A stretch of 64,000 nt of DNA from Bilabrum cf. latius (taxonomy: Eukaryota): contig OZ237752.1 in NCBI GenBank assembly GCA_965178125.1, positions 310,001 to 374,000 of the forward strand, read 5' to 3'. Positions 3,858-50,100 of this stretch are shown in pieces. Under the pieces are notes generated by a model. That model saw nothing but the letters and a program-made list of their open reading frames with translations, was not told the origin of the DNA and ran no database searches. The position numbers and the translations under genes are program-made. How positions within the stretch are numbered: the first letter of the stretch is position 1; the number at the start of each line of letters is the position of its first letter.

Positions 3858-6800
3858 TAGCCCCCCGCTTGTATCGTCTTGGCTCGTATCGAGTTTTTCT
3901 GCGATGCAGGAAGTTGAGGTCGAACTGGTTTCGTTGGATGGCTGGGTCGCGTATTCAATCGATAGCGTTTTCTCGTATGCAAAGGTCCCTATCGTTTCTC
4001 GTGTGTCACCAAGTGGACTTGTCGTGTCATCAGTGCAGACCTTGGACTTCTTCGGCGAGTCCTTTGGCCCGGTATTTGATGCCGTAGCTGACGGCGTTGC
4101 CACCTGTTTGATCGAATGCGGCGGAGTTGAACTGGAATACACGGCGGCAATCAGTAGCTTGTCGAGTGGCTTTTGCGTTGTGAGCGCACCTGAGCAGGAG
4201 TGCCAAGCCAGCTTTGCTTTGCGCATTGGTCCAGGGTCTCTGCAATCGTAGTGGGTCGAACTCCCTGTGTATGAGCAGCCACGAGTTCAGTCACTGCACC
4301 CCAGTTTCGGTTGGGTCGTTGGCGGATCGGAAGTTACAATTGTTGGCGAAGGGTTGGATGCCTCGCCATCCCTGATTGACGATTTCCGATGCAAATTCGG
4401 TTCTTCCTCTGTGGCCGGGATGGTCATCAATGACACTGCTGCAGTTTGCGTCTCGCCGCCTGGAGAGTTCGTTGGGGATGACGTCGGGGTTGATGTCTCC
4501 TTGAATGGTGGAATTGACTTCACTTCGCAGGGAGACTAGGCGCCTAGGTTCTCCTTTGAGCAACCGCCCACGGTGGCAAGCATTCCCCTTCTTTCTGGCA
4601 CGGGATCCGGCGGCGTGTCAGTGCCAGTCTATGGGACTGGGTTGTCGGCGTCTGGCATGAGCTGCGCATTCGGTGGATTCGGCTCCTCACTGTTTGTGGC
4701 GATCAACGATACGATGGGGCACTGCTTGTCGCCAGCACTTCCATCACCCATCGGAGAGGTGCGGTCGGTGCCTCTGCAGGTGCGGTGGGGCAGTCTGCCT
4801 GCACTGTGTGGCAAGTCTGCCAGGCAAGGGTGCAGCTTCTCATTCACGTACCTTCCATCCGCGCGAATCGGTGCCGTTTCTCCTGCAGTGGTGCAGGAGG
4901 CCGTTCCGACGCAGGTTCGGCTGTCTGGTCAAGGATTCGCTATGTTTGGTCGCATTGAGTGCAAGTTTGAGAGCAGCAGCCATGAGGCCACCGGAAGGTT
5001 CCACTTCGTTTCATCCTCGGAATCGTCGTGTGCTGTGCCCCGAACTCTGCCTCCGGGAGAATACGCAGTGTCTCTGGCGTCCAGCACAGCAAAGCTGATT
5101 GAGCAAGGCACTATTCCAAGGATAATTACGGTGCTGCCTGCTTTGCAGTCGTCAAGTGCTTCGCCAGGGATTGTCCCAGCGGAAGGCGGTCATGCCTTGA
5201 ACGTCACAGTTAGTGGTGTTGCCACTGATTTCGAGGGCGCTTTGGCCTGTGTATTTGGAGGCGGCGGCGTGACAGATGGGTATGTGGTTGCCCCTGGGAC
5301 CGTGGAATGCACGACTCCGCCCTTCAGCTCATCGGAGGAAGTATTCTACCAGGGTTCAGTGCGGGTTGCGTACGAATCAGCGTCGCATTTCGCTGCCATG
5401 GTGGCCGCATCCAGGGATGCAGACACCAGCGACGCAGCAACGTTCTGGCTGGACGCCCGGCGGTCATCCGCGCAGCAAATGATATCCGCCTCCGCGTCTG
5501 TAGCACCTGGTGGCTCTTTGGTCTCCATTAAGCTGGCTTCGGCCGCAGTTCCGCCTGCGGAACTGTTGAGTGGGACGTCGGGTACACCTACGTGTTTTGT
5601 GAGACTGCACGACCTTCCCTGCGGGCCGTTTGCATTCAATGGGGACTTTTCAGTTGATGTCTCTGGTGGCGGGAGTATCACGTGCGAAGTTGATGGGACG
5701 GAGGCGATTCGAAAGCGGTGTGTTTCCCTCCAGTCGAGCACATTCGCAGGGGCGTGGGATGCCTCCATCAGCGTCTCATTCGGCGGGATGCAGTCGTGGC
5801 TCGGACCTGAAAATGACGTGCAGCTGCTGGATGTGGTCAGCTTGCGCGAGGTTGACCCACCCATCACGGTTTACGGGGCGTAGATCGAGTTGTTCCTTAC
5901 AGGTGAGGGCTTTGCCCCTGTGGACGAGGTCTACTGCGTTTTCATTGCGGTAGGTGGCGCTGAGGATGTTTACCCGCGGTCTCGATTCCTACCCATGTCG
6001 AGCTAGATGGGGCGGTGTGCCCAGCCCAAAAATCTGGTACCCGGTGACTATCTTGTCCAGCTGTCAACTGAAAGCGGAGGCGCCGTATCGATGGGGCAAT
6101 CGCCGAGGATAAAAGCTCTACCTCACTCCGGCATCTCGACCGTATCACCTCAATCGGTAAGCAGCCGGTCAAGCTCAACGCTCGTACTGCGGGGCTCTGG
6201 TTTCAACCACATCGATGGGCTCCGTTGCACGTTTGGCATGCATTCCTCTGTGGCCACGGTGGTTAATTAGAGCGTAGTGACGTGCGAATCGCCAGTACTT
6301 CCGACGTCTGCGATGTCTGACCGGGCCGGGGAGGCCTGCCAAGCTGATGGTTAGTGCAGTGCGCAGGTCCGGGTTGGCCTCGCGATTCGCGGCTTCAATG
6401 TGGCCGATCCGGCTGATGGCCCGGTGCTCTTGTTCTAGAACCAAGAGGGCTTGGCCACCATTTCGCCCGCAGTCGTGCCTTTCGACTACGCAGCCTCAGG
6501 CGGTATCGTGAACGTATCGGTAGGAAGCAGCACCGTGGACGTCGGTGATGATGCTGTGCAGTGCAACTTTTTCGATGGCTCAGTGTAGTCGATGGGAACC
6601 GTGATCGTCTCGGAATCTACCAGCATAGTGCAGTGCACGATGCCCTCTGAAACTGATATCGGGACGGTGGTCGCTCAATCGGAAGCCAGCGGAATTGCAA
6701 GCGGGTTCAGGCTGCGAGCAGACGGCAGCCTCTCTATCCGACTCGAGCTGAAGAGCGGGTTTGGGATGGGTACCGTTGGAGCAACTGCAACCATTGCTGA

Positions 6801-9800
6801 GGGCACCATTGTCCAACTGCAGGAGTTTGCGGTCACGTCGGTGGAGCCTCCTGTAGTCACTAGCATCCGAACTTCTTCACAAGGTGAAGCGCGGGTCCTG
6901 CGGCTCAACGGCCGCGGTTTTCCCACGTCAGTACCGGGCACGTGCGTATTTAGGTCAGGCGGTGAGTCAGTCAGGTCAACGTACCAGGCAGTCAGTCAGG
7001 ACACGGTCTTATGCGACCTTCCCGCTCTAGCCCCGGGGAGGGTGAGCGTTTCTGTGCAGTTCTGGGACCAGTACGGCGACCATGATGGCCTTTCAGCGCA
7101 GTCGGACAACGGTTCGGCGGCAATGCTCCTGGTGGTAGAGCAGCCAAGCGTAGCATCCATAGTGCCGCATATCGCCCAGCTCGGTAGCACATCTCAGATC
7201 CTACTGGCGGGCGCCAATTTCAACGCCAACCTTGGGATGGAATGCCTGTACAAGGCAGCCTCCTCCGGGAATACCAGCTCGCCAGAGGTGCGTAGGCCGG
7301 TGTCTGTTTTGACCGCGAATCACGCTGAGTGCGCGCTGCCGGCCTACCTTCCTGGCGCCGGTGCCGCGAGCAGCACCGAATCTAGTGGAGTGTTTCCCGT
7401 GACTATCGAGCTCGTATCGACCACGGAGACGGACCTGGGTCGGACGGAGCCGCTGCATAGAGGCGATCTCGTTGCTCTGCAGCCGTTCAACCCGTCTGCG
7501 GCGCTGACAATCAGCCCGCAGAGGGGCCCGGTGCGAACCAGCGCGCCAGTACGAGTCACCGTTTCACTGCCGGGCGGCTTGCAGCATGCCCGCGTGAAAG
7601 CGCCATTCTGCGTGTTCGACCTGGTCCGAAGCCCTGCAGTAGAGACGTCACCAGGCACGTTCGAATGCAACGCAGCGAGGCGAGCAGCAGCGGGTGCCTC
7701 AAGGGTGGCTCTGTACCCGGATGGGGAGAGCCGCCTTGTGGTCGCCACTCCGTTCGAGTACCTCGATCCTATATCAATCGCTGGGGTGTCGCCCCCCGCC
7801 ATTCCAGAGGCTGGAGGGGTCACCGTAGAGATTCGAGGCAGCGGGTTTGTAATGTCACGGCAGCTGCGGTGCCGATTTTTTGGCGAGATCTCTGTTGATG
7901 CCATGTGGATTAGTCGCCAGGCAATTGCTTGCGTAGCCCCTGTGGGTCCACCGGGCAGGGCCTCTGTGCAGGTGTCCAACAACGGCGGCGACTCTTGGGA
8001 AGGCAGTGGATCTGTCGAGTACCTCCCAGCACTGACTATTACGTCAGCCTCACCTGCTGTTCTCCCTGCAAGCATCGGTGGAACCGTGAATGTGACCGGT
8101 ACCGGCTTCATGGGTGGTCGCGGGCTGCTTTGCCGTGTTGGTTCCTACGAGATCGGTGCAATTCCTGTGGATTCGCACACAGTTCAATGTCCGATCCTTG
8201 GGTCCTTCCGGGCGGGGTCTGCCACGGCCCCGCTGGAGCTGCGGTATGCAGACGTGAGGGCAGCTGAGTGGGTGTCGGCTGACGACGTCACCATCAGCTT
8301 CGCCGAGGTGCCTGCTGGTCTTTTGGTGGAGCCCAATGCGATCGATTCAGGAGCGTAGACCGAACTCATCTTCAGTCTGCCGCCCGATCACCGCGGCTCG
8401 TACCCCGTGTCAATCAACAGTGACTCATTCCTTTGCATGGGTGCAGCTTCCCGCGGTTGCGATGCATCCACGCTGTCGTGGAGGCTGATGGTGCGGCCCC
8501 AAGACAGCCCGGAGGACGAGAGCACGGGCCCTTGCCATGCAACCACGTCGACGCTTTCCTGCACTATTTCTGTTCCTACCGTGTACATGGGCAGTGGCGC
8601 CGTAGATCTGCTGCTGTCGCCCAACAATGGCAGCACATTCCGGGCCACGAGAGCCGACCTGCAGGTGGTGCACCCTTCGGGCGTTCTCGCGACGTCCCCT
8701 GGCGTGCTATCCGAGCCAACCTCAGGGCATCAGCCAAGCATTAAGGTGTATACCACCGCAACAGTAGCGGCATCTGCTCGAATGCGGTGCGTGTTCGGGT
8801 CTGGCGGGGAGGCCACGACGCCAGCTCATGCGATCGACGCGCGCACAGTGCAGTGCGCAGTGCCGCAGCTAGCCCCCGGCACACACCCTGTCCACGTCGG
8901 CGCAGTCTCTAATAGGTTGGCTGCGCGGCGTCTCGCAACCCGACCTACTTCGGCGCACGTCACTATCTTGCCCGTTGCCACCGTTGTTGGGGTCTCGCCA
9001 AAGCTTGTATCGAGTGTGTCCACGACGTCAGTGCGGGTTTCTGGTTCTGGCTTTGTGAATTCGGCGGCTGCGCAGTGCAGGGTATTCGGTGTCGTCTCAC
9101 CCGCTACGGTCTTGTCTGCAAATGTCATGGAATGCAAGGTGCCCCCAGTCATGCAGGGGATCGATACTACCGGTGGTCTTAGCCCCGTCGAGGTCAGCAT
9201 GGACGGCGTGCAGTTCGTGTCAGACCCTTTGGTTACCGTGTCTGCGCGGCAGGAGCCACTCCGCATTCAACTTAGCTCGACGAGCGGCCCAAGGCACGGA
9301 GGGGGCACGGTCGAAATCAGTGCCCTCGATGGACTGGGCGCAGATGCGTCGGTCGTGGATCTGGGCCTCGTGGCCGGCACCTCGCTCGACCAAATCAGCT
9401 GCGAATTTAACGGTACCGTTGTGGCAGGGGCAGTGGCCCCGAGCAGCGGCAAGGCGATGTGCACCGTGCCTCCAAGCTCCAAGACGGGCCTGGTCACAGT
9501 GAGGCTCTCGATCGATGGAGGTACGTTCCTGAGGGCTACGGGGACGTACACGTACGTTGCTTCAATGGCGGTGCTTGAGGTGCGGCCCAGCGTACTCCCA
9601 GAGACCGGTGCCAGATAGCTGCGAGTGCTTGGAGAGGGCTTCATCAATTCGCCCGAGCTTCTTTGCAGGGTGGTTGGCTCTTCACCGACCCGTGCCACCT
9701 GGATCAACAGCAGCAGCATCGTTTGTTCCGCCCCCGCCCGTCACCCAGGCTTATCTGCCCTAGAGATTTCCAACAATGACGGCCACTCGTGGGAAGGCTC

Positions 9801-12800
9801 ATTGCAGCTGGAGTACCTTCCAGCCTTGACAGTGCAGAGCGTGACACCGTCAATTCTGGTAAGCAGCAAGGGAGGCGATGTTACCGTGTCGGGGACCGGC
9901 TTCTAGTCACACCGACGGATGGCCTGTCGCATCGGCCGCGTAGTTGTAGCCGCTTCTGTGATCAACAGCACCAGCTTAGTGTGCGCGGCTCCGAATGCAG
10001 TCGAGGCGGGCGTGTCCCGTGCTGTTGTGGGCGTGGGATTCTCTGGGTTTGACACCGTACCGTTCGTGGAATCTGACCTCGTTTCGGTCGCGTTTACCTC
10101 GGTCCCAACGGTTGTACGCATAGCCCCGAACAGCGGTGCGTTCGAGGGCGGGACTCGAATTAGCCTTGTGCCTGCAGAGGGCCAGGCGTTCCAGAGCGAA
10201 GCACGTGGAATGCCACTGGACTGGGAGTGCGTGTTCATGGTCGAAGCTTTCCCCGGCACGGCGGCGAACGTGCCCTTGGCGCAAAGGGCTGGGCAAACTT
10301 TCAGGGTTGCCGCACAGCTCGACCCGAAGACGAACCAGCTGCATTGCGTGGCCCCGACCATCTCGCGAGGTCCTCGGAATGCAGGCACCCTGCGGGCCGA
10401 CGTGCGGCTTGCGCCGGCAGGAACGGGCCTGCGCAGCTTGGCCCCAACTGGGCTGACGTTCACGTACACGGTAGGACTGCTTGCCACTGCTGTTGGTCCT
10501 GCGACTGGCCCTGAGACCGGCGGTTTCACGATCACTGTGTCTGGCCGTGGCTTTGAGCCGCGTAAGGAGAGCGTGTGCGGCTTCAGGCCTGCAGCTGCGC
10601 ATCCGGGGCAGGGACTGGTGCTTGCCGACGCCATGGCCCACACCGTGCCCCTCGAGTTCCGGTCCTCCACCGAGGTACGCTGTGTGGCGCCCGGCGGGAG
10701 ACCGGGTGAGACGATGATGGTGCACGTGTCAAACGATGGTGTCAGATACAGCCCAGTGGGACTGCAGCTGCAGTACCACTAGCTACCCGCGCTCATGTCC
10801 ATTTCACCCACGTCTGGGCCGATGATCGGCGGATCACTCGTGACTATCCGTGGCAAGGGCTTCGACTTCTCGCCGGATCTCCGGTGCGCCTTTGGTGGGC
10901 TCAAGCTGGTTCCCGCGCTGCTGGTGTCGGACACGGAGATTCGATGCATCACACCGCCGCGCCCCTCTGCGGCCGAGCGCTCCGCGTTCCTGGTGCAGAC
11001 CGGTACACCGCTGGATCAGGCCCTGCGCATCGGTGCCATGTCCGGCCCAGTCGATACGTCTGTTGACGTGGTGAGCAGTAACGGCACTCTTGCTTTTAGT
11101 AGCGGGAGTCAGACGGTGGGTCAGCTGACCTTCAGGTACGTGGATTCGCCCACGGCCTCTGCCGTACTCCCATCGCACGGGCCGCCAAGCGGCGGCACAG
11201 TAGTAACTGTTACTGGCACGGGATTTGTGAAGGGTAGCTCCAGGTGCCTGTTTGGACCTGTTCCCGATCCAGTCCAGGGGGAAGGTGGTATTGCAGTGCC
11301 AGCGAACGTTGTGAACAGCACTGTCGCAACGTGCATCTCGCCCCGCATGCCGGTCGAAGCATCGGTATCTCCGATGCAGTCCGAAGGTGCGGTGGCCGTG
11401 CGAGTGTCAACCAACAATGGGGCCGACTATGGCCACAGTAGTGCTAGATTCCACTACCTGCACGCACCTAGGCTGCAGAGAATGCTGCCGACCACCGGAT
11501 CCGAGCTGGGGGGCACCACGATCCGCTTACAGACCGTGGGATCATCCACCCTGTTCCACCCGTCGTGTGTGTTCCTGGCCAGGAACTCTTCGCTGGGACT
11601 TAGAGGAGGAAGGTTGGACTCTATTTCGGAGATCAAGGACCAGCAGGCAGCCGGCGTGCTCGCCGTTGTACCAGCCCTGCAGACGTCCCCAACGCAAGTG
11701 GAGTGCATGTCCCCCCCTAGCCCAGCCCGGGAGCCCCTCATCACGCTGAGGCTGACTACGAACGGGCAGGACCTATCGGGGACGTTCCTGTCCTTCAGGT
11801 ACACGCTGCCCATGGTGGTACACGAGCTCAGACCGGCCAGCGGGCCATCCACAGGCGGCACCACCGTGCAGGTGATTGGTTCTCGATTTGAGCAGGGCCA
11901 CGGACTCTCATGCCTGTTTGGGCGGCAGCAAGTTGCGGCTTCCTTCATCAGCACATCCATTCTGGCGTGCAGAGCTCCCGCGGCTGCCGTCGGTGGGGTG
12001 CCCGTTTCGGTCAGCCACAATGGGTTCGACTTTGTTCCCTCCGCTGATATTGCACCTCGGTATACGTACGTGGAGCCGTTCGCAGTTAGGAGCATCCGCC
12101 CGAGCTTCGGTCCGGTGGAGGGCGGCACCAGGGTGACGGTACGAGGCGGCGGGTTCGCGTCCGCCTCAATGGACAGCAGCGTTACCTGTCGGTTCGGAGA
12201 CTCGATTGTGGACGGCAGTGTTCTCTCCGACTCTGAGCTGGAGTGTAAAGCACCCGCGTCACCCAACCTGAACCGCCTTGGCGGCGGCGGCCTTGGCTCC
12301 ATGGCCGTAGCAGTCTCTTTCAACGGCAGGGACTTTACTGAGACGATGCTGCAGTACCGATACGTCCCCAGTGTGGTCGTGCTCACGGTGTTCCCCAGAA
12401 TCATGGTTGAAGGTGTTAGGTCTAGAATTAGGATTCGGGGGGACGGGTTTATAGAAAGCAGCCTGCTGGAGTGCCGCTTCGAGCACACGGCAGCTGCAGG
12501 GTCTAGCGTGCCTGCGGTTGGAAACAGCACAGCTCCCGCGCGATTCATCAGCCCGCAGGAAGTTTCGTGCGATGCGCCTGGCGTGCCGCAAGGGATACTG
12601 CGCGTGCGTGTGTCCAATAACGGCAGGGATAACGCTGCTGTGACGGACTCTGCAGCCGCTTTGTCGGTTGTTCCTCAGCTGACCCTTGCTGCAAGCCCTA
12701 CTGCCGGATCCGTCTTTGGAGGAACGCACGTGCAGCTCCGAGTGTCTGGCTTTCCCGCCGCTCTCGAGACACGCGCCTATTGCGTGTTCGATCGAATCAG

Positions 12801-15800
12801 GGTCGCTGCGCTTGCCCTGCAGCAAGAGCCCCTCCATGCGGCTCAAGCGGTTGGGGGGTCCCCGGCGCCACCACCCGCGTACACCCTTGAGTGCATCGCT
12901 CCAGCCGCCAGTCAGCCCGGTGTTGTAGACGTGAGAGCATTTGTCGGGGGGGCCGACCCGGAGTTGGCCCCATACGAGGACGATGCTGCCGTGCCACTGG
13001 GTTCCGTACAGTTCGAGTACACCAGCGAGCCTGTGCTTCACAACGCTTCGTCAGGGGTGGTATTTGCCTCAACCGGAGGAAACACACTGGTTGTGCACGG
13101 ACAGGACTTGCTGCCCACCTCCGTGGCGCACAGAGGGTAGAACATGGCATCGCGGCTCGATGGTGGTCTTGCATAGATGGGACTGGAGCCCTCCTGCCGC
13201 TTCCACGGAGCCTTGTGGAGCAGCGACCCGATGGACGCACCAACCGTAGCGGCCACTTTCATAAATCAGTCTGCTATCCAGTGCACGGTTCCGGGGGGGC
13301 TGGAACCCGGCAGAGTCACGCTGCAGTACTCAATGACGGGGCAGGACAGCGGGTACACTCAGGCAGGGCTTGCTCTGCAAGTGATTTAGGCACCTGAGCC
13401 GCAGACTGTAGTGCCAAACGTTCTCACAGAGGAGACTTTCGTGGCATTGTAGGTGTTTGGCAGCAGATTTGTGCCCGCCGCTGGGCTGTCTTGCATCTTT
13501 GTCCGACAAGACTAGAGCACGTTGTCCCCTGCGCTGTTCGATGGCATGATGCATTCGCATGTGACAGTCGTGTCTGAGTTCAAAGCAACGTGCATCACCC
13601 CGAAGCTGAGGCCTGGGCGATACTACGTGGGTGTCTCGCTATCCGACTCTGTTGCAGCTGCTGCATCAGCGGTGCGCTGGCCAATCGCAATGGTGCGTGA
13701 ACGTCCCAGCGTTGGCACTGCTGTGCCGCAGGAGCTGCCATCCACTGGCGGCATGCGGGTGCGTCTCATCGGCTCGAATTTCATGCATGGGGTGCGGCAC
13801 GTGTGCCGATTTGCTCCGGTGGATCATGATGGCAAGGGGGCTATTCAAGTGTTCCCCAGCTACTCGAACGCCACCGTGGTCTCATCGAACGAAGTCTCGT
13901 GCCAGGCGCCTGCTCGGCCGGCGGGATCTTCCTCTCGCGTGACAGTCGGTGACCACCACAGCGGCTTTGGTGACGATGCCTCTGGGGCACTAGTCACGTT
14001 CGCCAACCCAGCGGTGATCGAGCGCATCGAGCCTGCGTTCGGGCCTGCGTCCGGTGGTACCATGGTTCGATTGTACGGACATGGGTTCAGGGCGGAGGAC
14101 ACAAATCTCTGTCACTTTGGGCAAACGGCATTGACCGAGGCATCAGCACCCGCAGGACTTGGTGCCTTGCTGGTGGCGGCTGCAGATGCTGCGTCGGGAG
14201 TGCGCAAGGCTGTCAGTGCAGGGGCTGGAGAGCTCGTCACACTGCCCACGCCTGCGCGGGTACTCAACTCGACCGTGATTGAGTGCCAGTCGCCTCAAGC
14301 AGTCACTACCAACCTTGTTCGCACTGGAGACCGCGGTGCCACGAGAGCACGCGTGTCCATTCGCACGGTGGCAGGTAGGATGACTGAGTTCGGTCCATCG
14401 TTCACCTTCTACACCCCCGCAATTGTGACATCAATCGAGCCAAGTTCAGGCCCGGATGTAGGTGGTACGTACATCACGGTGCGCGGCGGGAATTTCTTGC
14501 CAACGCGGCAATTAACCTGCAAATTCGGGGCGATTGCAGTGCCAGCGGTGTACGTTACCGAGAGCGAGGTCGGCTGCTGGTCGCCTCCGGCGTGGCAGGC
14601 TGCCGAGGCCGAGCGAGCCGTAGCATCGCCCAGCGTTGTCGCGGTGGTGGTATCAAACAACGGTGTGGACTTTGCGCCTGCCTTCTCTGGACTAGACGCT
14701 GGCTCTGCAGTGGTAAAGGCAATTGCTGCGGCGTCGCAGTCTACAGCCAACCTGTCTGATTCGGACGCTGGCGTGGTTGCATCCATCCGAAGGGCGGCGG
14801 GGTCAGCCGAGACTTAGGCTGAGATCCTCTTCGCTTACGCCAAGCAAGTGGATGTGCTCTCCGCGCAACCTGCTATTGTGTCTGGCTCGGGTGGAACCAC
14901 CGTCACCATCCGCGGCGGCCCTTTCTCGGGGGCGTCATCGGGGAGAGCTCGGTGCAGCTTCGGAGGAAAGCAGGTGGCAGCTTCCGTAATTAACTCAACG
15001 CATCTGCGATGCGAGACGCCTGCCCTTGGAGTAGGGTACACCGATGTGCGTGTGAGCCTGAACGGGGGCGCAGACTACTCCCACGCTTCGGTGGCTGTGA
15101 CTGCCATCCGCCCAGCACAGGTCGACACGATCAGGCCCATTCGAGGTCCAGCAGCTGGCGGCACCCCAGTCGCCGTGTCAGCCATCGTGTCTATTGAAAG
15201 CTCAATGCTGTCTGAGCTTATCGGCACCGCTGCTTGCCGGTTCGGGCAACACGATGTCGCCCCAATCAATGCAACAGCAGTGCCGGCAGGCTTGCACGGC
15301 TCCCAGCCCACGCATCAAGTCTCGCTCACATGCCTGTCGCCGCGGTACATTGACGCCAGCCCGGCGTTCCCCGGAGACGTCGACTCGACCCGCGACCGAC
15401 TCTCCGGCCCAGTCACTGTGCAGCTTCGGCTCGGTCCGGAGTTCAGCCCATTCGGGGGAGTGTTCCGGTACGACCCGCAGATGAACGTGACGAAGGTGCA
15501 CCCGTCGGCATTAGTGGCGTTCCAGAGAGATCCGGCCACCACAAGCATGGCTGGGGCCCTGCTGTCTGGATCTCCGAGGTCTGAGGTCACTCTGACTGGC
15601 TTCGGGTTCAGGGCCGCTGCCTCGGTGTCATGCCGCTTCCGCACGCTGCCCTCGACGTTCCTGCTTGGGAGCGAGCCCGAAGCGGGGGTGCGGCTGCGCG
15701 GGCTGCCGCCGCAGCAAGCGATGGAGAACAAGTACCAAGACTTTTTCACGAATGCCGAAGTGCGCTCCGAAGAAGAAGTCAGGTGCGAGGTGCCTCTTGG

Positions 15801-29600: not shown

Positions 29601-29638
29601 CGAGCATCAGCGCCTTGCAGGGGATGGTCGACCGGTGA
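26624..29638 (+). CDS. Hypothetical Ala/Gly/Arg-rich low-complexity protein (~913 aa); exons 26624-26722, 26828-27024, 27193-29638
   Basis: Two GTGAG...CAG introns with matching phase. In-frame TAGs at 26663, 27839 and 28097 link ORFs 27182..27841 and 28154..29638. Ends TGA. The 5' exon model is less certain. Confidence 0.62.
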
Positions 29639-39800: not shown

Positions 39801-40030
39801 CTGAGGCTGGGCTGCATGACGCCTTGCGGCAGGCAAGGGTGACGCTGATCCGCGCGGAGGAGAGCAGGTTAGTGGCGATGACGAGTGTGACGAAGGCTCA
39901 GCAGCAGGAGTACTTGCAACCTGTGGTGCGCTCGGCGGGTGCTGCTTCGGGCGGTGCCAGCCTTGACACCGGGGCAGAAAAGGGCGAGTCGGAGGACGAG
40001 TTTGATGATGATGATGATGATATGGACTGA
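36875..40030 (+). CDS. KU80: Ku80 (NHEJ DNA end-binding subunit), ~1008 aa with low-complexity insertions; exons 36875-37037, 37167-40030
   Basis: vWA N-terminus (EALILAIDVG-Q-SM...QQKI...DSVTIVPFGT|ETQN...DQYQHVTV...NFLDALVV...IMMITDA). Ku core motifs FAGDLDI, AFQFGTDVVPV, VPRHHFMG, ALVRF, QLPCEEDFRDYRF, LVDSMDL, FNPVLHR. C-terminal VGPVDPIGD...AVQCLRAMREVC. GTGAG..CAG intron. In-frame TAGs at 36917, 37250, 37304, 37931, 39290. Ends TGA. Confidence 0.9.
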
Positions 40031-40343: not shown

Positions 40344-41981
40344 ATGGCAGCAGCAGGACCGCCTGGTGGAGGTGCAGGAGGAGAAAAGCCACCTGGGGGA
40401 GGTCTCCCACCGAAGTGCCTCACCAGGCACAAAATTCCGCCGCTTGCAACTGCAAAGCTAGAAACAACGTACGCTGCGGACGGCTAGCCTCTGCAATATC
40501 TGACATGCAACGATGGTGTTACTTTCAGGATTATTAAAACTTTAGCTCCGGCACTTATGGGGAAAGTTAAGCTGTGCTGCCAGTGCTCACCGCAAGAAGA
40601 TGGCACCTTTACGGATACCGAGAACAGATTTGCGGTCAAGATGCTCCTCAAGCACTGCATATAGCGCGGAGTCACAACTGATGGGAGAAAAGTCCAAGAA
40701 GACCCAATGACGGAGGTGAAAGTGCAGGCTTACCTGCAGTCTTAGCGGTGAGTCCATTCGTGTTGCGATCGTGCTTACTTTGAGTCCGTTTTGGTACACC
40801 ATTGCATTCGTTTCATCGACAGGAACTTGAGATAAGGAAACAATTCGCGTCTCTTTCTCTCATGTTGCTTGCGGTTGCTGTTTGCACGCTTTGAACAACT
40901 TTGGTCAGCGGACGCACCGTTCCCAGAAAGCACGTCCGCCGCATCCAAGCCCCCGCACCTCGCACCGATCTTGTCACCGCGCAGAGGAGGGCACAAGAAC
41001 GTGCTTCGATTGCAGCGCGTGTGCGAGGACGAGCACATCATTTACATCATCCTGGAGCTGTGCCCTGGCGGCGACCTCTTCGACAGGGTGCAGCGGGAGC
41101 CCAGCGGCAGGCTCCCAGAGGCAAAGGCAAGGAACTACTTCATCCAGCTGCTTCAGGGCGTCTGCTTCATGCACGGAAGGGGCGTCATCCACAGGGATTT
41201 GTCTCTGGAGAACGCCATGGTGGACGGGAAGGACACGGTCAAGATAATCGATTTCGGGCTCTCTGTGGATAGGTGGTACCAGGCAGCCCCGCCACCGGAC
41301 AAGATGCCTCCAGGGGGCAAGGTAGGCAAGCCATCCTACATGGATCCCGTGATATACTAGAACGGTCCCTACCACCATCACGTCGATCTTTGGTGCATGG
41401 GGGTGATGCTGTTCACGATGCTGTATGGGGTGCCCCCGTACAGGCACCCCAACGCAAGGGCATGCGCATTGTTCAACGAGATATAGAACGGCAGGCTGGG
41501 CGGCCTGCTGACTCGGTGGGGCATGGCCGATTTTGCCTCTCCTGCGGCTCGGGAGCTGGTGATCTCGATGCTGAACCCCGACCCTGCCAAGCGCCCCACG
41601 CTCCCGGACATCCTCCGGAGCCCTTGGATCGCCGAGGATCCCGAGATCAAGAGGATTGGCGGCAGCGTTGTGGCCTCCACACAGGTGGAGCGGGTGCTGC
41701 GAGCTGGTGATGTGATGAATGCCAAGGTGTTTGCGTACAGGCACGGCAGACCCATGCCAGTGGTAGGCAGGCCAGGGCCGGGGGCAGGGGCCAAGGCCAG
41801 GGGCGGTGCGGGCGCTGGCGCTGGCGCGGGTGCGGGTGCGGGTGCGGCACCAATGGATGACGAGGATCCCCCAGGCGGAAGTGGAGGTCCTGCGAGCGGC
41901 GGGGCAGGTGGCGGAGCGGGCGGGGCAGGTGGCGGAGCGGGCGGGGCAGGTGCGGGTGGTTCAGCCGCCATGGAGACATGA
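40344..41981 (+). CDS. Ser/Thr protein kinase, CAMK-like (EDPxxE / HRDLSLEN / GKxxY type), ~466 aa, Gly/Ala tail; exons 40344-40747, 40985-41981
   Basis: Motifs FAVK, EDPMTE, HKNV, GGDLF, HRDLSLEN, DFG, GKPSYMDP, DLWCMGV, DPAKRP. GTGAG..CAG intron in phase 2. In-frame TAGs at 40485, 40662, 40743, 41358, 41484, two of them inside the C-lobe. Ends TGA. Confidence 0.9.
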
Positions 41982-42210
41982 CAGTGGGGAAGTAGGTGGG
42001 GCGGTTGTGAGGCCGCGGGTAGATCTAGGTGCTGTGTCGACGATCCACGCGTTACACATTCATAATTATATCGTATTTATCACATCAACTAATTCCAAAT
42101 TTGCACTTTCGGGAACGAGCGTGTCTAAGCGCGCCCATCCCAGCCCCGTCCTCCTCGCCCACCATATATGGCCTACTATTTGCAGTTGCAGCTGCCACAG
42201 GCTGGCCGCA

Positions 42211-43851
42211 TCACGACTCATCCCGCATGACACCCTGTCCCTCGGCCGCCCCATTGCCTTCTGCCGCTGCTGCTCCCGAGCAACTGCTGCCGGACGCTGC
42301 CGACTCATCGCGCATGGGAACACAGCCCTAGTTCATGGGGGCTAGTGCTGGAGCTGGAGCTGGAGCTGGAGCTGGAGCTGGAGCTGGAGCTGGAGCTGGA
42401 GCTGGAGCTGACGCTGGCACTGGTGCTGGCGCTGGTACGCCTGATCCAGCCCCAGCCTTTGCCCCGCCTGTCGCTGCCCCACCAGCGGCAGCTCCTGCAG
42501 CCGTCAGCTCGCTGGCATCTGCACCTGCACCTGCACCTGCACCTGCACCTGCACCTGCACCTGCACCTGCATCTGCATCTGCATCTGCACCTGCACCTGC
42601 AGCTATCCGTGCTCGCAGCCCAGCCACGTGCCAGGCGTGCACCTTGATGTTCTTTGACCTCGCTGTTACCACCACCGACTCTATTGCATTACGAGCCCCT
42701 CTCACACCCATCACCTGCATGGCAGGCTCCCCCATCATAAAGGGGCGTGTCACCATCTCCGCAATGGACGGGCGGTCCTCTGGCCGGGCCCTCGCCACGA
42801 AAAGGCAAAAGTCCTTCGCAGCGTCAGAAAGACCGCTGAATCTCGGCAGCGTCTTGATTGCATCATGCAGCGCAGTCTCACTCAGACTGTACCCATTTTT
42901 GAGCACCCCACCGCACAGGAGACGTACCGCGCACATGCCCAGCGAGTACAGGTCCGCTCGCTCGTCGTACACCTCCCCCCTCGCGACCTCGGGGGCGATG
43001 TAGTTGCCCTTCCCCGCCCAGCCCCGGATGCCATCCGCACCCTTCGGCAACGGACCACCATCGGGCGCCCTCGTCACACCCCTGGGAGGCTGCAACCACC
43101 TGTCCACGGCCTGCCCCGGGTCGATGATGACCCCCTCGCCGTCGTCTGCCAGCACCGAGTTCTCGAGAGACACGTCACGGTGCAGCACTCCCACACAATG
43201 CATGTGGTGCAGCCCCTTCGCCAGGCCATAGAAAGCCTTGCGAGCGGCTGTCTCGGACATGCCATCAAGGGCCAGTGCGACGACATCGGAAGCGGCGTAG
43301 AATGGCATCATGATATAATGGTACTCGTCGTCCTGCCCACTCTCCAGAACGGAGCAAATATTCGGATGCTACCTGTACTCGTGAAATGAAGGCATAAGAG
43401 CTAATAGTTAGGATGTGTGCTACCTGCGCTTGGCTGCTGCACATACCTACGCCATCCACGTCGCTGTTGCTTCGTCTCACCCAGTTTGCCAGCCTGTATG
43501 CACATAATCCAGAATTCGGACCTCATTAATCGGATCCTCCTTCGTAGGCATGCCCTTAGTCGTCCTCTTGGAAGCAATCAGCGAAAGCTTTGAACGCTTG
43601 ACAACGTAGCCTGAGGAATTGCCACCTGCGGCTTGTGGGCAAACCTCGTACACACCGGGCACGTCAGGCTTCTCGAAGCACTCAGCACAATACCATATGT
43701 CACCCATCATCGTCTTGAACAGTCTCTTGACGCGCTGGACTACCTTTTGCCCGTTCACGCACAGTAGCTTGCCCCTTGCAACAAATCTACTGTCACGCCG
43801 TGTACTCTAGAATGCCGTCAGGCAATTTACAACCATTGGTTGCTTTGACAT
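42211..43851 (-). CDS. Divergent Ser/Thr kinase (paralog A; DPG instead of DFG), ~510 aa, with AG/AP-repeat tail; exons 43851-43481, 43372-42211
   Basis: Motifs YVVK, EDPINE, G-Q(TAG)-HPNI, HRDVSLEN, IIDPG, GKGNYIAPE, DLYSLG, EDRP. Intron 43480-43373 has GTGAG, a CTAAC branch point and CAG. TAGs at 43807, 43369, 42328. Ends TGA at 42211-42213. Confidence 0.87.
42346..42601. repeat. Coding hexamer microsatellites (GCTGGA)n and (GCACCT)n encoding AP and AG dipeptide runs in the kinase tail
   Basis: Directly visible at ~42346-42408 and ~42518-42601. Confidence 0.9.
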
Positions 43852-44181: not shown

Positions 44182-47100
44182 TTAAAAATGTAAAGCGCTC
44201 TCCAGCAGTGCCTCCAACTGCGAGCACGGCCGCCCAGCGGATCGCAGCTGGGACAGCAGATCGGTCCCGGGTACTGCAGTACCCACCGCGCCCTCGGGGG
44301 GATGCATGGCCAGCGAGGCAACCAGGGAGACAGCAGCACAGGCAGCGCCATGCCCTGCAGATCCCATGCGCACCTCCCACGCCTCCACCAGCACCCTCAC
44401 GCACTCATCATGGCCCCCGAGCACGGCCGCCATCAGCGGACCGCTCAACCAGCCCGAGTGACCAGGCCCCGGGACATCCAACACTGCCGCTGCCACTGCC
44501 ACCGGGCCACGAACCTCCATCCCACCCGCCAGCTTGCCCAGCCTCAGCCGCTTGGCCAGCTCCAGCGGCCTGCCCTCCTTGGCAGCTCGGTGCACCATGG
44601 CAGCATCTCGTTTGGCCTCCACGGCCCTCCTCCACCGGGCCAAAGGCAGGATCCTCGGGTCAATAAACTCCCGGATGAGCTTGGCCGTGGCTGTCTTGCC
44701 CCTGCAGTCTGCTTCCTCTGCTGGGGTGCGTCCGTCCTGCGGCAGTAAGTGACAGCACATAATACGTTCAGAGGTATGTCAGCAAGCTGATCTGTCGAAT
44801 CAATCCCAAAACAACCCATCTCACCTTGTTCTTGACCGTCCTGCTGGCTCCGGCCCGCAGCAGAGCGAGAGCCGCGGCATCCCTGCCACTGAAGGCGGCT
44901 TGATGGAGAGGGGTGCCCCTGTACTGCGGAATCAAGTAGCCAAAGATATCCATTATCATCTCAGGGCGAATGCCAACCCACAATCATGTTCAAGGTCCGC
45001 AGGAGAGGCGGCGAGGAGCAGCTAGATTGACGTGGATCTATCGATTTCCCGGTTCCTAGAAAAGCGTGGCGTGCTCCGACCTGATCGCGAGCGCAGCCAC
45101 CCAATAGCATGATGGGCCTGGGCGACGAGCACAATACTTGGAGCAAGAAACTGCTTCGGCTATGGACTCAGTTGATTCACTATCTCGATTTTGCACACAG
45201 GCCCGCTGATTCCGATGGCATAAATCTCATCGTTTAGCTCCTCCTACATCATGAACTGCCTCAGCTCCCAAGACACAAGCGCTCATCGACCCCCGCACGA
45301 CCAGGCCGCACCCTTCCCATGCGAAGTCACAGAAGGAACACCGACTCCCATGCATCCAATCATCCCATCTATTTCATACATCACATCAACTCACCTAGCC
45401 GTCAGCGTTCACATTGGCCCCCGCTGCAACCAGCACACCCACCAAGTCGGCGTAGCCCTCTCTGGCTGCCCAGCCCAGGGGGGTGTACTGGCCCTGTGAG
45501 GAAGGAAAGTGAGGGACGTTACGGGATGTGATGGGATGCCAATGGAAGGCAACAAGGGAAAACAGCGAATCGAAGTCAGAAACAGAGCATCGACGCCACG
45601 CAATCCACCCATGGACGGGCCTCGGGCCCCCACAGAATCCGCTGCACCCGCTCGCCCCAGCACCAAGCCGGCACTGGCACCATTCCAGCATATCCACCCC
45701 AAGTCACAAATACAACCGCACAAACAGAACACTAGACTATCCACCCATCTATCCAGGACTGCGGCAAGGCCGCCCGGCGGTCATGGTCGCAAGTTAGGCG
45801 AAGCGCAGTCGGCTGAAGGCGGTAGATCGCGACTGTGAGATTGTGTGCAACTTGCACCCGTAAGACGCAGCTCCATAAGATGACTCAACATCTGGTTGGA
45901 TCGCCTTCTTCTTCGCCCTGCATCCCGAGCTATCCCGGGCTCCAAGTCACAAGCGCTTCTCACGACCACCTCACGACCAGGCCGCACCCTTCCCATGCGA
46001 AGTCACAGGGAACACCAACTCCCATGAATCCAATCATCCCAGCCATACATACATCGCAACAACTCACTTTGCCTTCAGCGTTCACATTGGCCCCCGCTGC
46101 CACAAGCGCACGCACCACGTCGGCATGGCCCTCACTGGCTGCCCAGCCCAGGGGGGTGTCCTTGCGCTGTGAGGAAGGAAAGCGAGGGGCGGCCAAAACA
46201 GGTGAATGGGAAGAGATGGCAATAGGAAGCAACACGGGAAAACAGCGAACTGAAGTCAGAAACAGAGCCTCGACGCCGCGCAACCCAACCACGGACTGGC
46301 CTTTGGCCCCCGCACGTTCCGCTGTTCTCACTCGCCCCAGCACCAAGCCGACACTGGCACCATTCCAGCATATCCACCCCAAGTCACAAATACAACCGCA
46401 CAAACAAAACACCAGACTATCCACCCATCCATCCAAGACTGCGGCAAGGCCGCCCGGCGGGCATGGTCGCAAGTTAGGCGAAGCGCAGTCGGCTGAAGGC
46501 GGTAGATCGCGACTGTTGGATTGTGTGCAACTTGCACCCGTAAGACGCAGCTCCATAAGATGACTCAACATCTGCTTGAATTGCCTTCCTGTTCCGCTTG
46601 CATCCCGAGCTATCCCGGCTCCAAGGCACAAGCGCTCCTCGGCCACCTCACAAACACTCACATAGCCCTCAGCATCAACATTGGCCCCCGCTGCCACAAG
46701 CGCAGCCACCACGTCGGCATTGGCTGCCCTGTGCAGCGGGGTGTCCTTGCTCTGCGAGGAAGGAAAGCGAGGGACGGCCAAGGGGGGTATGAAGGGATGG
46801 CAATGAAAGGCCAACAAGGGAAAGCCGCGAACTGAAGTTAGAAACAGAGCATCGGCGCCGCGCAATCCACCCATGGACGGGCCTCTGGCCCCCACAGGTT
46901 CCGCTTCTCCCACACGACACAGCATCAAGCCAGCACTGGCACCATTCCAGCATATCCATCCCAAGTCCCAAGTACGATCGCCCAACCAAATCACAAGACA
47001 CCCCATGCAGCCATCCAGGACTGCGGCGAGGCCGCCAAGCGGTCATGGTCGCAAACAAGGCGTTACGCAGTCGGCTGATGGCAATCGACCGAGACTGTTG

Positions 47101-50100
47101 GATTGTGTGCAACTTGTGCCCATCCAGCAAAGCTTCATGCGCGGATTCATCATCTGGTTGGATCGCCTTCTGGCTCCTCCTGCATCCCAAGCTATCCCGG
47201 CTCCAAGCCACGAGCGCTCATCGACCACCTCGCGACCAGGCCGCACCCTTCCCATGCCGAGTCACAGGGAACACTAACTCCCATGCATCCAACCATCCCA
47301 GCCACATACACACTTCACGGCAACTCACTTTATTCTCAGCATTCACATTGGCCCCTGCTGCCACAAGCGCACCCACCACGTCGGCATGGCCCTCACTGGC
47401 TGCTGCATGAAGCGGGGTATGCTTGTACTATGAGGAAGGAAAGCGAGGGACGGCAAGAAGGAATGCGAAAGCATGGCAACGGAAAGGCAAAGAGGGGGGG
47501 GGGAAGCAGCGAACGGAAGTTAGTGCCATAGCATCGGCGCCGCGCAATCCACCCATGGACGGGCCACGGGCCCCCACAGGCCCCGCTGCACCCACTCGCC
47601 CAAACACCAAGCCGGCACTGGCACCATTCACGCATATCCACCCCAAGTCCCATAATCAAATACACAACCAAATCGCCAAACCATCCAGACATCCATCCAA
47701 GACTGCGGCAAGGTCGCCGGCGGTCTTGGCCCCAAGCCGGGCGAAGTGCAGTCCACTGATGGCAATCGATCGAGACTGTTGGATTGTGTGCAACTTGTGC
47801 CCAGCAGACGCAGCTCAATACGAGGACTCATCATCTAGTTGGATCGCATTCTGGCTCCTCCTGCATCCCAAGCTATCCCGGCTCCAAGCCACAAGCGCTC
47901 ATCGACCACCTCACAACCAGGCCGCACCCTTCCCATGCCGAGTCACAGGGAACACTAACTCCCGTGCATCCAACCATCCCAGCCACATACACACTTCACG
48001 ACAACTCACTTTGTTCTCAGCATCAACATTGGCCCCCGCTGCCACAAGCGCAGCCACCACGTCGGCGTGGCCACATCTGGCTGCAACAAAGAGCGGTGTG
48101 GGCTTGTCCTGTGAGGAAGGAAAGCGAGGGACGGCGACGGAAGGCAGAAAAGGGGTAGCAATGAAAAGGCAAAGAGGGGAAGCAGGGAAGGAAAGCCAGT
48201 ACCAGAGCATCGGCGCCGCGCAATCCACCCATGGACGGGCCTCTGGCCCCCACAGGTTCCGCTTCTCCCACACGACACAGCATCAAGCCGGCACTGGCAC
48301 CATTCACGCATATCCACCCCAAGTCCCATAATCAAATACACAACCAAATCGCCAAACCATCCAGACATCCATCCAAGACTGCGGCAAGGTCGCCCGGCGG
48401 TCTTGGCCCCAAGCCGGGCGAAGCGCAGTCCACTGATGGCAATCGATCGAGACTGTAGGATTGTGTGCAACTTGTGCCCAGCAGACGCAGCTCGATACGA
48501 GGACTCATCATCTAGTTGGATCGCATTCTGGCTCCTCCTGCATCCCAAGCTATCCCGGCTCCATGACACTAGCGCTCATCGACCACCTGCGACCAGTCCG
48601 CACCCTTCCCATGCCGAGTCACAGGGAACACCAACTCCCATGCATCCAATCATCCCATCTACACATACACACTTCACGGCAACTCACTTTGTTCTCAGCA
48701 TCAACATTGGCCCCTGCTGCCACAAGCGCACCCACCACGTCGGCGTGGCCCTTTTCGGCTGCCCTGTGCAGCGGGGTGTACTAGTCCTGGTAGGAAACAA
48801 AGTGAGGGGCGCCCAAAGGGAATTCAAAGAGATGGCAATAGAAAGGTAAAAAAAGGGGGGGGGGGGGGGGGCAGCGAACGGAAGGTACTACCAGAGCATC
48901 GGCGCCGCGCAATCCACCCATGGACGGGCCTCCGCCCCCCACAGGTTCCGCTGCACCCACACGCCCAATCACCAAGCCGGCACTGGCACCATTCACGCAT
49001 ATCCACCCCAAGTCCCAAATACACAACCAAATTACCAGACCACCCAGACATCCATCCATCCAAGACTGCAGTTTGGCCGCCCGGCGGTCATGGTCGCAAG
49101 TAGGCGAACCCCAGTCGGCTAAAACGGCGATAGATCGAGACTGTTGGATTGTGTGCAACTTGTGCCCAGCAGACGCAGCTCGACAAGAGGATTCATCATC
49201 TAGTTGGATCGCATTCTTCTTCGCCCTGCATCCCGAGCTATCCCGGCTTCCAAGACACAAGCGCTCATCGACCACCTCACGGCCTGGCCGCACCCTTCCC
49301 ATGCTGAGTCACAGAGAACACTAACTCCCATGCATCCAATCATCCCATCTATGCATCCATGCATACATCACGGCAACTCACTTTGTTCTCAGCATCAACA
49401 TTGGCCCCGGCTGCCACAAGCGCAGCCACCACGTCGGCGTGGCCCTTTTCGGCGGCCCAGCCAAGCGGGGTATCCTTGTACTGTGAGGAAGGAAAGCGAG
49501 GGACGGCCAAAACAGGTGAATAGGAAGGAAAGGCAATGAAAAGGCCAAAAGGAGGAACAGCGAACGGGATGTAGAACCAGAGCATCGGCGCCGCGCAATC
49601 CACCCATGGACTAGCCTCGGGCCACTGGCCCCATTCCAGCATATTTACCTCAGTCCCGAATTATACTCCACGACCAAATCACCAGACACTTCATACAGCC
49701 ATCCATCCAAGACTGCGGCAAGGCCGCCCGGCGGTCATGGTCGCAAGTTAGGCGAAGCACAGTCGGCTAAAACGGCGATAGACCGCAACTTTTAGATTAT
49801 GTGCATAGTACCCCCAGCAGACGCAGCTCGATACGAGGACTCATCATCTGGCTAGATCGCCTTTTGGTTCCTCCTGCATCCCAAGCTATCCCGGCTCCAT
49901 GACACTAGCGCTCATCGACCACCTCACAACCAGGCCGCACCCTTCCCATGCCGAGTCACAGGGAACACCAACTCCCATGCATCCAATCATCCCATCTATG
50001 CATACATCACAGCAACTCACTTTGTTCTCAGCATTCACATTGGCCCCCCCTGCCACTAGCGCACCCACCACGTCGGCGTGGCCCTTTTCGGATGCAAAGT

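What the first reader, a model, noticed from the sequence alone, without database searches (positions are those of the whole stretch)
6268..48783. Internal paralogous alignments identify the UAG amino acid as glutamine
Seen: TAG aligns with CAG/CAA in repeated motifs. (1) Ankyrin exon GAC-TAG-TAC-ACC (48786-48775) vs GGC-CAG-TAC-ACC (45493-45482). (2) Cys repeat AP-*-TCTEGSYC (21016) vs TP-Q-RCFDGFFC (CAA at 19771). (3) L-*-VFGSRF (13450) vs V-Q-VIGSRF (~11869). (4) VN-*-SVVTC (6268) vs IN-Q-SAIQC (~13267). (5) Kinase tail *-GCVPMRDES (42328) vs Q-GVMRDES (~42237). TAG also clusters with Gln codons: TAG CAG CAA at 37250, TAG CAG CAG at 37304, TAG CAG at 23194 and 31005, TAG CAG CAG CAA at 60515. 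Inference: UAG=Gln rather than Leu, Glu, Tyr or Pyl.
Basis: seen in the sequence. Interest (0 to 1): 0.88.

Follow-up and report, generated by a model that had tools for sequence, protein, structure and literature searches.

The report
UAG read as glutamine in protist
In this protist DNA the usual stop signal TAG sits inside genes and is read as the amino acid glutamine, a known kind of genetic-code change that here appears in a lineage where it seems not to have been reported.

Summary

TAG is a sense codon. Frame +1 of 1-26442 is one 8813-codon frame with 27 TAG, no TAA and one closing TGA. Seven supported coding frames hold 45 TAG, 0 TAA and 0 internal TGA in 13,203 codons.

The residue is Gln:
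- TAG 25111 falls on Q in 86 of 128 aligned homologue stretches, and TAG 21016 on Q in 50 of 55.
- A syntenic metagenome relative, L001 (87% aa identity), uses the same code. In the giant gene's C-terminal part, 8 of 10 TAG positions pair with CAG/CAA. Gln codons themselves do so 62/84, and every other residue at most 2.7%.
- A 94%-identical oxidoreductase has Q at TAG 35432.

Spliced RNA contigs keep the TAGs unedited.

TAG-Gln adjacency is at chance (4/45, p = 0.32).

TAA is not Gln: 12.5 would be expected and 0 were seen. All 7 gene ends are TGA.

Named relatives are all stramenopiles. No such stramenopile code turned up in six literature searches.

No tRNA or eRF1 could be examined.

The parts
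1..26442 (+). Giant gene, open at the window's 5' end. It has 8813 codons with 27 in-frame TAG, 0 TAA, and ends in TGA. It encodes IPT/TIG repeats, a Cys-rich region and a C-terminal multi-pass membrane domain.
25111..25113 (+). TAG in the membrane-domain motif F-X-LLADIF. The column is Q in homologues, and the codon is CAA in L001.
   Evidence: Q in 86 of 128 aligned stretches, 28 of the first 30; CAA in L001
21016..21018 (+). TAG in the Cys-rich motif AP-X-TCTEGSYC. The column is Q in homologues, and the internal paralogue has CAA at 19771.
   Evidence: Q in 50 of 55
22957..22959 (+). TAG that pairs with CAG in the close relative L001.
23194..23196 (+). TAG that pairs with CAG in the close relative L001.
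27176..29638 (+). Open frame of an unnamed gene with 2 TAG, ending in TGA. It is syntenic with L001 4411-6816, which has 4 TAG.
30246..34169 (+). Open frame of 1307 codons with 7 TAG, including a TAG-TAG pair at 31323-31328. It ends in TGA and is covered by an unspliced RNA contig with no differing letters.
34890..36575 (-). Gfo/Idh/MocA oxidoreductase gene with one TAG (35432-35430), ending in TGA.
   Evidence: a 94%-identical protein (P0190) has Q at the TAG
37109..40030 (+). Ku80-like gene exon with 4 TAG (37250, 37304, 37931, 39290), ending in TGA.
40984..41981 (+). Protein kinase, exon 2, with TAG at 41358 and 41484, ending in TGA. Intron 40747-40983 (GT..AG) is removed in RNA contigs.
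42211..43407 (-).
48688..48786 (-). 99-nt ankyrin exon whose second codon is TAG (48783-48781). Its acceptor is the cag at 48789-48787 and its donor is gtgagt.
45395..45493 (-). Paralogous ankyrin exon with CAG at the same codon. Its last codon is TAG, directly before gtgagt. The exon ends are fixed by RNA joints.
60353..61345 (+). It has 7 TAG in 330 codons, no family match, and satellites on both sides. It is probably not coding and is not part of the evidence.

Best explanation
This is nuclear DNA of a GC-rich (about 60%) protist, probably a stramenopile. Its genetic code reads UAG as glutamine. UGA ends every gene seen here, and UAA is not used as a sense codon.

Shown here:
- TAG is frequent inside conserved, transcribed, selectively constrained genes.
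- TAG behaves as a synonym of CAG/CAA when compared with a close relative.
- TAG falls on invariant-Gln columns of distant homologues.

Inferred, not shown: a tRNA-Gln with anticodon CUA, one base away from the CUG isoacceptor, decodes UAG but not UAA. The release factor eRF1 has lost or weakened recognition of UAG. This is the mechanism proposed for the other UAG-only Gln codes (Panek et al. 2017, PMC5304391, passages read).
For: TAG is a sense codon:
- 1-26442 is one 8813-codon frame with 27 TAG, 0 TAA and one terminal TGA. The two off-frames of the same stretch carry 174 and 141 TGA.
- Seven coding frames total 13,203 codons with 45 TAG, 0 TAA and 0 internal TGA.
- All 7 frames end in TGA.

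The frames are real genes:
- Pfam matches TIG, Ku, Pkinase, GFO_IDH_MocA and Ank.
- The giant C-terminus has 1238 homologues at E<=1e-3.
- Against L001 there are 494 synonymous and 148 non-synonymous differences in 1235 codon pairs.
- Runs X5-X7 carry GT..AG joints that are absent from DNA run X1. Their contigs cover 30262-34210, 34789-36624 and 37166-40027 with 0 differing letters. The TAGs are therefore in mature mRNA and are not edited.

The residue is Gln:
- Column of TAG 25111: Q 86, S 11, T 9, M 4, K 4, N 4 of 128.
- Column of TAG 21016: Q 50, Y 2, R 1, K 1, S 1 of 55.
- Profile log-odds over 9 covered columns: Q +11.4 bits, K +5.1, E +3.4, Y -8.4, L -11.4.
- L001 is 87% aa identical, has GC 0.596 and the same gene order, and has 7 and 4 in-frame TAG.
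- In the C-terminal part of the giant gene, the 10 TAG-versus-sense pairs are CAG 7, CAA 1, AAC 1, ACT 1.
- Control: partners are Gln codons for TAG 8/10 and for Gln 62/84. For other residues: His 1/37, Glu 5/191, Lys 1/64.
- Likelihood with the empirical substitution table, both genes: Q -41.0, K -62.4, H -73.4, R -76.0, E -88.4 bits.
- P0190, 94% identical to the oxidoreductase, has Q at TAG 35432.

TAA is not Gln: with CAG:CAA at the observed ratio, 12.5 TAA would be expected and 0 were seen (Poisson P = 3.6e-6).
Against: - In the less conserved second gene (60% identity), none of the 4 alignable TAGs pairs with Gln. The partners are AAA, CAC, AGG and CGC. On that gene alone K, R and H score above Q.
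- All 3 TAGs in ankyrin exons lie in paralogue columns where Lys is the majority (K 7 of 11, and K 7 of 10).
- In the 9 TIG-repeat match columns that hold a TAG, Q is among the six commonest residues in only one (2 copies). The log-odds sum there ranks K and N above Q.
- Seven of the 9 homologue columns are variable and say little.
- P0189, 74% identical, has T at TAG 35432. The 119 homologues aligned there, nearly all about 38% identical and, where named, bacterial, have R 73, A 21, D 7, Q 5, E 5.
- No tRNA gene lies in the window or in L001. No eRF1 gene was seen, and there are no peptide data.
- Only two strongly conserved TAG columns exist.
- The RNA runs were laid only on 30001-50000, not on the giant gene.
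Confidence: 0.9

Rival explanations
1. UAG is a sense codon but encodes lysine, or another basic or polar residue such as Arg, His or Glu, not glutamine.
For: Ankyrin paralogue columns holding the 3 TAGs are Lys-majority: 7/11 and 7/10. In gene 2 the TAG partners are K, H, R, R. K ranks first in the TIG-repeat log-odds sum and second in the homologue profile sum.
Against: In the well-conserved gene, Lys codons pair with Gln codons in only 1 of 64 cases, His 1/37 and Glu 5/191, while TAG does so in 8 of 10. The two conserved columns have K in 4/128 and 1/55, against Q in 86/128 and 50/55. The combined likelihood is 21 bits worse than Q for K, 32 for H, 35 for R and 47 for E. K's rank comes from the very low Lys content of this protein (89 of 8813 residues) combined with the profile priors. 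K, R and H are common replacements for Q.
Confidence: 0.04
2. The code is the common UAR = Gln variant (NCBI table 6 type, as in many ciliates, hexamitin diplomonads and ulvophyte algae). TAA is simply rare because the genome is GC-rich.
For: GC3 is 0.6-0.74 in these genes. No gene end in the window or in L001 is TAA (0 of 7 and 0 of 2), so TAA is not shown to be a stop.
Against: CAA is not avoided: CAG to CAA is 334 to 93 in the seven frames. That predicts 12.5 in-frame TAA beside 45 TAG, and 0 were seen (P = 3.6e-6).
Confidence: 0.04
3. UAG is still a stop codon. The TAGs are bypassed by leaky readthrough with near-cognate tRNAs, removed by splicing, corrected by RNA editing, or the genes are pseudogenes.
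For: Near-cognate readthrough of UAG occurs in standard-code organisms (PMC4150775; search listing and abstract only).
Against: 27 TAGs in a single 8813-codon frame cannot all be passed by inefficient readthrough. RNA contigs are collinear with the DNA across TAG-bearing frames with 0 differing letters, and splice only at GT..AG introns that do not remove those TAGs. Purifying selection acts on the gene (494 synonymous against 148 non-synonymous differences), and TAG positions turn over between window and L001 like synonymous sites. No gene here ends in TAG.
Confidence: 0.01
4. [quoted passage not shown]
For: Ambiguous codes exist in some ciliates and trypanosomatids (PMC12153298 and 10.1101/2022.04.12.488043; abstracts in search listings only). 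Only 9 gene ends were examined.
Against: 7 of 7 gene ends in the window and 2 of 2 in L001 are TGA. None is TAG.
Confidence: 0.05

Closest known systems
UAG-only to Gln nuclear codes (NCBI table 15 pattern): fornicate Iotanema spirale; ciliates Protocruzia tuzeti, Hartmannula sinica, Trochilia petrani (PMC5304391 and PMC11687900, passages read)
   Same: UAG is a frequent sense codon that matches Gln in homologues. UAA is not reassigned together with it. The expected decoder is a tRNA-Gln(CUA).
   Different: In those organisms UAA is the dominant stop codon. Here all 9 gene ends seen are UGA, and UAA was seen neither as a stop nor as a sense codon. The genome is GC-rich. Named relatives of the giant protein are stramenopiles, a group not listed among code variants in the passages read or found in my searches.
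UAR = Gln codes (NCBI table 6): many ciliates, hexamitin diplomonads, Streblomastix, ulvophyte algae, Amoeboaphelidium (list from PMC11687900, passage read)
   Same: A stop codon is read as Gln, presumably through anticodon-mutated tRNA-Gln. UGA is left as the stop.
   Different: TAA is not a sense codon here: 0 seen against 12.5 expected.
UAG = Leu codes: rhizarian exLh and TARA phyllopharyngean ciliates (PMC5304391, PMC11687900, passages read)
   Same: UAG alone is reassigned.
   Different: Leu is disfavoured here: -11.4 bits in the profile sum, and L is absent from the 14 orthologue partners.

Membership tests
UAG-only = Gln nuclear code (table 15 pattern) | In-frame TAG inside conserved, expressed protein-coding genes | tested here: met
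   45 TAG in 13,203 codons of 7 frames. Pfam and homologue support. Spliced RNA contigs keep the TAGs.
UAG-only = Gln nuclear code (table 15 pattern) | TAG positions correspond to Gln in orthologues | tested here: met
   Q in 86/128 and 50/55 at the two conserved columns. 8/10 CAG/CAA partners in L001 for the giant gene's C-terminal part. Q in the 94%-identical P0190. Against this, 0/4 in the less conserved gene 2.
UAG-only = Gln nuclear code (table 15 pattern) | TAA is not a sense codon | tested here: met
   0 TAA in 13,203 codons against 12.5 expected.
UAG-only = Gln nuclear code (table 15 pattern) | TAA works as a stop codon | tested here: inconclusive
   0 of 7 gene ends in the window and 0 of 2 in L001 are TAA. 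All are TGA.
UAG-only = Gln nuclear code (table 15 pattern) | tRNA-Gln with CUA anticodon | not testable with these tools
   No tRNA gene in the window or in L001. No whole genome is held.
UAG-only = Gln nuclear code (table 15 pattern) | eRF1 altered in stop-codon recognition motifs | not testable with these tools
   No eRF1 gene was recognised among the window's frames scanned against Pfam. No genome is held.
UAR = Gln code (table 6) | TAA and TAG are both sense and both Gln | tested here: not met
   TAA is absent in frame.
UAG = Leu code | TAG falls on Leu or hydrophobic columns | tested here: not met
   L scores -11.4 bits. There is no L among the 14 orthologue partners.
Stramenopiles (taxonomic placement of the organism) | Closest named homologues are stramenopiles; a multi-gene phylogeny would be needed | tested here: inconclusive
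   Of 30 top hits looked up, 7 carry an organism name. All 7 are stramenopiles: Cantina marsupialis, Pythium insidiosum, Thraustotheca clavata, Aphanomyces euteiches, A. invadans and Albugo laibachii, with A. cochlioides as a cluster member. This rests on one protein family, identities are 40-46%, and no tree was made.

The most novel reading that the evidence does not exclude
This would be the first nuclear stop-codon reassignment in stramenopiles. It is a UAG-only to Gln code shared by at least two lineages that have diverged to 78% nucleotide identity (the window and metagenome contig L001). So it would be a clade-level change, not a single strain. Unlike all described UAG-only codes, UGA rather than UAA is the working terminator, and UAA is possibly unused.
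Probability: 0.45. Interest if true: 0.75.

Novelty: new member of a known kind. Interest (0 to 1): 0.62.

Why it matters
Codes in which UAG and UAA have different meanings are rare. The passages I read name four eukaryote lineages with UAG-only Gln. Such codes test the idea that release-factor constraints couple the two codons.

A further independent case, in a GC-rich genome that ends genes with UGA, would show that the UAG-only route does not depend on UAA being the dominant stop.

There is also a practical side. Any annotation of this organism or its relatives with the standard code will cut genes at TAG. The 8813-codon gene would fall into 28 pieces. Metagenome gene calls such as those on L001 are affected in the same way.

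Tried and rejected
- Internal TIG-repeat tabulation (56 repeats; 12 TAG inside repeats, 9 of them in match columns). The columns are variable surface positions. The result only says the residue is polar rather than hydrophobic, and cannot pick Q.
- Adjacency of TAG to Gln codons: 4/45 against 2.9 expected, p = 0.32. This is not evidence.
- Kinase homologue search. It gave 15 hits. The best, P0002 (49% identity), has L and E at the two TAG positions, which are variable positions. Uninformative.
- Ku80. The word-indexed search gave only 2 hits. The PDB alignment to human Ku80 covers the first two TAGs only in a 1.6-bit stretch. Uninformative.
- tRNA scan of the window, L001 and L002: none found.
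So no genome-wide tabulation and no tRNA or eRF1 search was possible.
- The look-up of sequencing runs: no listed holder is on record as RNA. X5-X7 were only guessed to be RNA, and I call them RNA because of their GT..AG joints.
- A third name look-up of 10 further hits gave no organism names.
- No phylogeny was made, so the stramenopile placement rests on named best hits only.
- Literature searches found no stramenopile nuclear UAG reassignment. Subscription journals are outside that library, and supplements were not seen.


Full report
**What the window is.**
The window is 64 kb at about 60% GC. It has spliceosomal introns and eukaryotic gene families. ARAGORN finds no tRNA gene.

**TAG is a sense codon.**
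- When only TGA and TAA are treated as stops, frame +1 of 1-26442 becomes a single open frame of 8813 codons. It runs off the window's 5' end, contains 27 TAG and no TAA, and ends in TGA.
- The two other frames of the same stretch carry 174 and 141 TGA, 12 and 18 TAA, and 57 and 46 TAG. An 8813-codon frame free of TGA and TAA therefore cannot be chance.
- The product has 56 detectable IPT/TIG repeats, a Cys-rich region and a C-terminal multi-pass membrane domain.
- Six further frames behave the same way:
  - an unnamed gene at 27176-29638;
  - a 1307-codon frame at 30246-34169;
  - a Gfo/Idh/MocA oxidoreductase at 34890-36575 (-);
  - a Ku80-like gene at 37109-40030;
  - two protein kinases, at 40984-41981 (+) and 42211-43407 (-).
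- Together the seven frames hold 13,203 codons with 45 TAG, 0 TAA and 0 internal TGA. All seven end in TGA.

**The genes are real and expressed, and the TAGs are in the mRNA.**
- The C-terminal 1199 residues of the giant protein find 1238 proteins at E<=1e-3.
- Four public runs were laid on 30001-50000. Run X1 behaves as DNA.
- Runs X5-X7 carry canonical GT..AG joints that X1 lacks. One joint is 40746>40984 in the + strand kinase. A chain of CT..AC joints (GT..AG on the minus strand) links the 99-nt ankyrin exons: 44923>45395, 45492>46067, 46166>46662, 46751>47329, 47427>48010 and 48107>49381.
- I therefore treat X5-X7 as spliced RNA, although their records only guess this.
- Their contigs cover 30262-34210, 34789-36624 and 37166-40027 with 0 differing letters. 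The TAGs at 30675-33663, 35432 and 37250-39290 are thus neither spliced out nor edited.
- The giant gene was not included in the stretch laid.

**Which residue: distant homologues.**
- I aligned the best 150 hits to the query. Nine TAG columns are covered by 18 or more homologue stretches.
- Seven of these columns are variable. For example, the column of TAG 22957 reads R16 K9 E7 A5, and that of TAG 23194 reads E15 A9 K4.
- Two columns are strongly conserved, and both are Gln.
- TAG 25111 (F-X-LLADIF, in a membrane helix): Q 86, S 11, T 9, M 4, K 4, N 4 of 128 stretches. The first 30 listed are Q 28, M 1, K 1.
  - TAG 21016 (AP-X-TCTEGSYC): Q 50, Y 2, R 1, K 1, S 1 of 55.
- Summed profile log-odds over the nine columns give Q +11.4 bits, K +5.1, E +3.4, Y -8.4 and L -11.4.

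**Which residue: a close relative with the same code.**
- A metagenome scan returned L001, a 6928-nt contig at GC 0.596. It carries the giant gene's C-terminus (1-3708, 7 in-frame TAG, TGA end). The neighbouring gene follows in the same order (4411-6816, 4 TAG, TGA end).
- In the first gene, amino-acid identity is 87% and nucleotide identity 78%. Of 1235 codon pairs, 583 are identical, 494 differ synonymously and 148 differ non-synonymously. The gene is thus under purifying selection and synonymous sites have turned over.
- The 10 positions where one side has TAG pair with CAG 7 times, CAA once, AAC once and ACT once.
- As a control, the share of codons whose partner is a Gln codon is:
  - TAG 8/10
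  - Gln 62/84
  - His 1/37
  - Glu 5/191
  - Lys 1/64
  - Arg 2/223
  
. TAG behaves as a third Gln codon.
- In the second gene (60% identity), the 4 alignable TAGs pair with AAA, CAC, AGG and CGC, and two others fall in gaps. None is Gln. Gln's own conservation there is only 51%.
- A likelihood built on the empirical substitution table of the two genes gives Q -41.0, K -62.4, H -73.4, R -76.0 and E -88.4 bits.
- The oxidoreductase search found P0190, 94% identical, with Q at TAG 35432. P0189 (74%) has T there. The 119 homologues aligned at that column have R 73, A 21, D 7, Q 5, E 5; nearly all are about 38% identical and, where named, bacterial.

All strings are at the stated places.
- (2) and the 25111 suggestion are confirmed as above.
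- (3) and (4) are pairs picked from 56 repeats. Their columns read R18 T11 V8 N3 L3 E2 and S24 E6 D5 P5 A5 T3. The TIG tabulation as a whole ranks K, N and Q on top and only excludes hydrophobic residues.
- (1) I first suspected a 3' splice acceptor. The 12 ankyrin exon copies settle it. Each is preceded by a pyrimidine tract plus cag or tag and followed by gtgagt. The TAG at 48783-48781 is the second codon inside the exon, and the RNA joints fix the neighbouring exon ends.
  - The codon is in frame, but in the other 11 copies it is K 7, E, C, A and Q 1.
  - Two further exons end in TAG directly before gtgagt. That column is K 7, W, E, Y in the other 10 copies.
  - The ankyrin paralogues thus lean to Lys, not Gln. 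I read this as ordinary K/Q exchange among young paralogues (AAG to TAG is one base change). It is evidence against, and I report it as such.
- (5) is a single short repeat in one frame.
- Adjacency of TAG to Gln codons is 4 of 45, against 2.9 expected (p = 0.32).
- The 60515 example lies in a frame with 7 TAG in 330 codons. It has no family match and sits between 107-nt satellite arrays.

**UAA and UGA.**
- CAG to CAA is 334 to 93 in the seven frames. If TAA were also Gln, 12.5 in-frame TAA would be expected beside 45 TAG, and none is seen (P = 3.6e-6). This is not the UAR = Gln code.
- Whether UAA is a stop cannot be said. All 7 gene ends here and both in L001 are TGA.

**Mechanism.**
- Shown: UAG is decoded as a sense codon, and its evolutionary behaviour is that of Gln.
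- Inferred from what is proposed for other UAG-only codes (PMC5304391, passages read): a tRNA-Gln(CUA), one anticodon change away from tRNA-Gln(CUG), reads UAG but not UAA. eRF1 has weakened recognition of UAG.
- Neither molecule could be looked for here.

**Comparison with known codes, and novelty.**
- UAG-only to Gln is a described variant. It is known from Iotanema spirale, Protocruzia tuzeti, Hartmannula sinica and Trochilia petrani (PMC11687900 and PMC5304391, passages read). In those organisms UAA is the dominant stop, whereas here only UGA ends were seen.
- Of 30 top homologues looked up by name, 7 carry an organism, and all are stramenopiles: Cantina, Pythium, Thraustotheca, three Aphanomyces species and Albugo. 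This is a lead from one protein family, not a phylogeny.
- Six full-text searches found no report of a stramenopile nuclear UAG reassignment. Subscription journals and supplements were not covered.
- I therefore class this as a new member of a known kind.

**Verdict.**
- Observation: partly confirmed.
- Interpretation: supported, with confidence about 0.9 for UAG = Gln.

Noticed in passing
window 1-4251: The 5' part of the giant gene is a near-identical in-frame tandem array. A block of three TIG domains (297 residues) is repeated more than four times and runs off the window's edge. This part has no TAG before 4249.
   Followed up: partly
window 45395-54100, minus strand: There is a tandem array of at least 12 ankyrin exons (99 nt, one of 90 nt). 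Each sits in a duplicated exon-plus-intron unit of about 0.6-1.3 kb. RNA contigs join neighbouring exons. They also show alternative or paralogous joins, including 48107>49381, which skips the TAG-bearing exon.
   Followed up: partly
window ~34310-34630 and ~44100-44580: Two short stretches have contig depth far above their surroundings (bins at 1108 and 345, against about 11-20 in run X1). A joint on opposite strands links 34312 and 44516. This looks like a dispersed high-copy repeat present in inverted orientation.
   Followed up: no
window 57503-60026; 60060-60408; 61222-62136: These are satellite-like tandem repeats: 112-nt period with 22.6 copies, and 107-nt period with 3.3 and 8.6 copies. 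The periods are not multiples of three, so the long open frames on both strands there are probably not coding.
   Followed up: partly
window 34890-36575, minus strand: Apart from two close relatives, the best matches of the Gfo/Idh/MocA oxidoreductase are about 38% identical. Those that carry a name are bacterial proteins (Sphingomonas, Novosphingobium and others). The gene may have been acquired from bacteria. It is transcribed and carries a TAG.
   Followed up: no
window 31323-31328: Two consecutive in-frame TAG codons sit in the 1307-codon frame 30246-34169. An RNA contig is collinear with the DNA across them.
   Followed up: no
L002 (metagenome contig, 7400 nt): This is a more distant homologue of the giant protein's C-terminus (38% identity, GC 0.42). 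It has 0 TAG in 2123 codons and ends in TAA, so it looks like a standard code.
   Followed up: no
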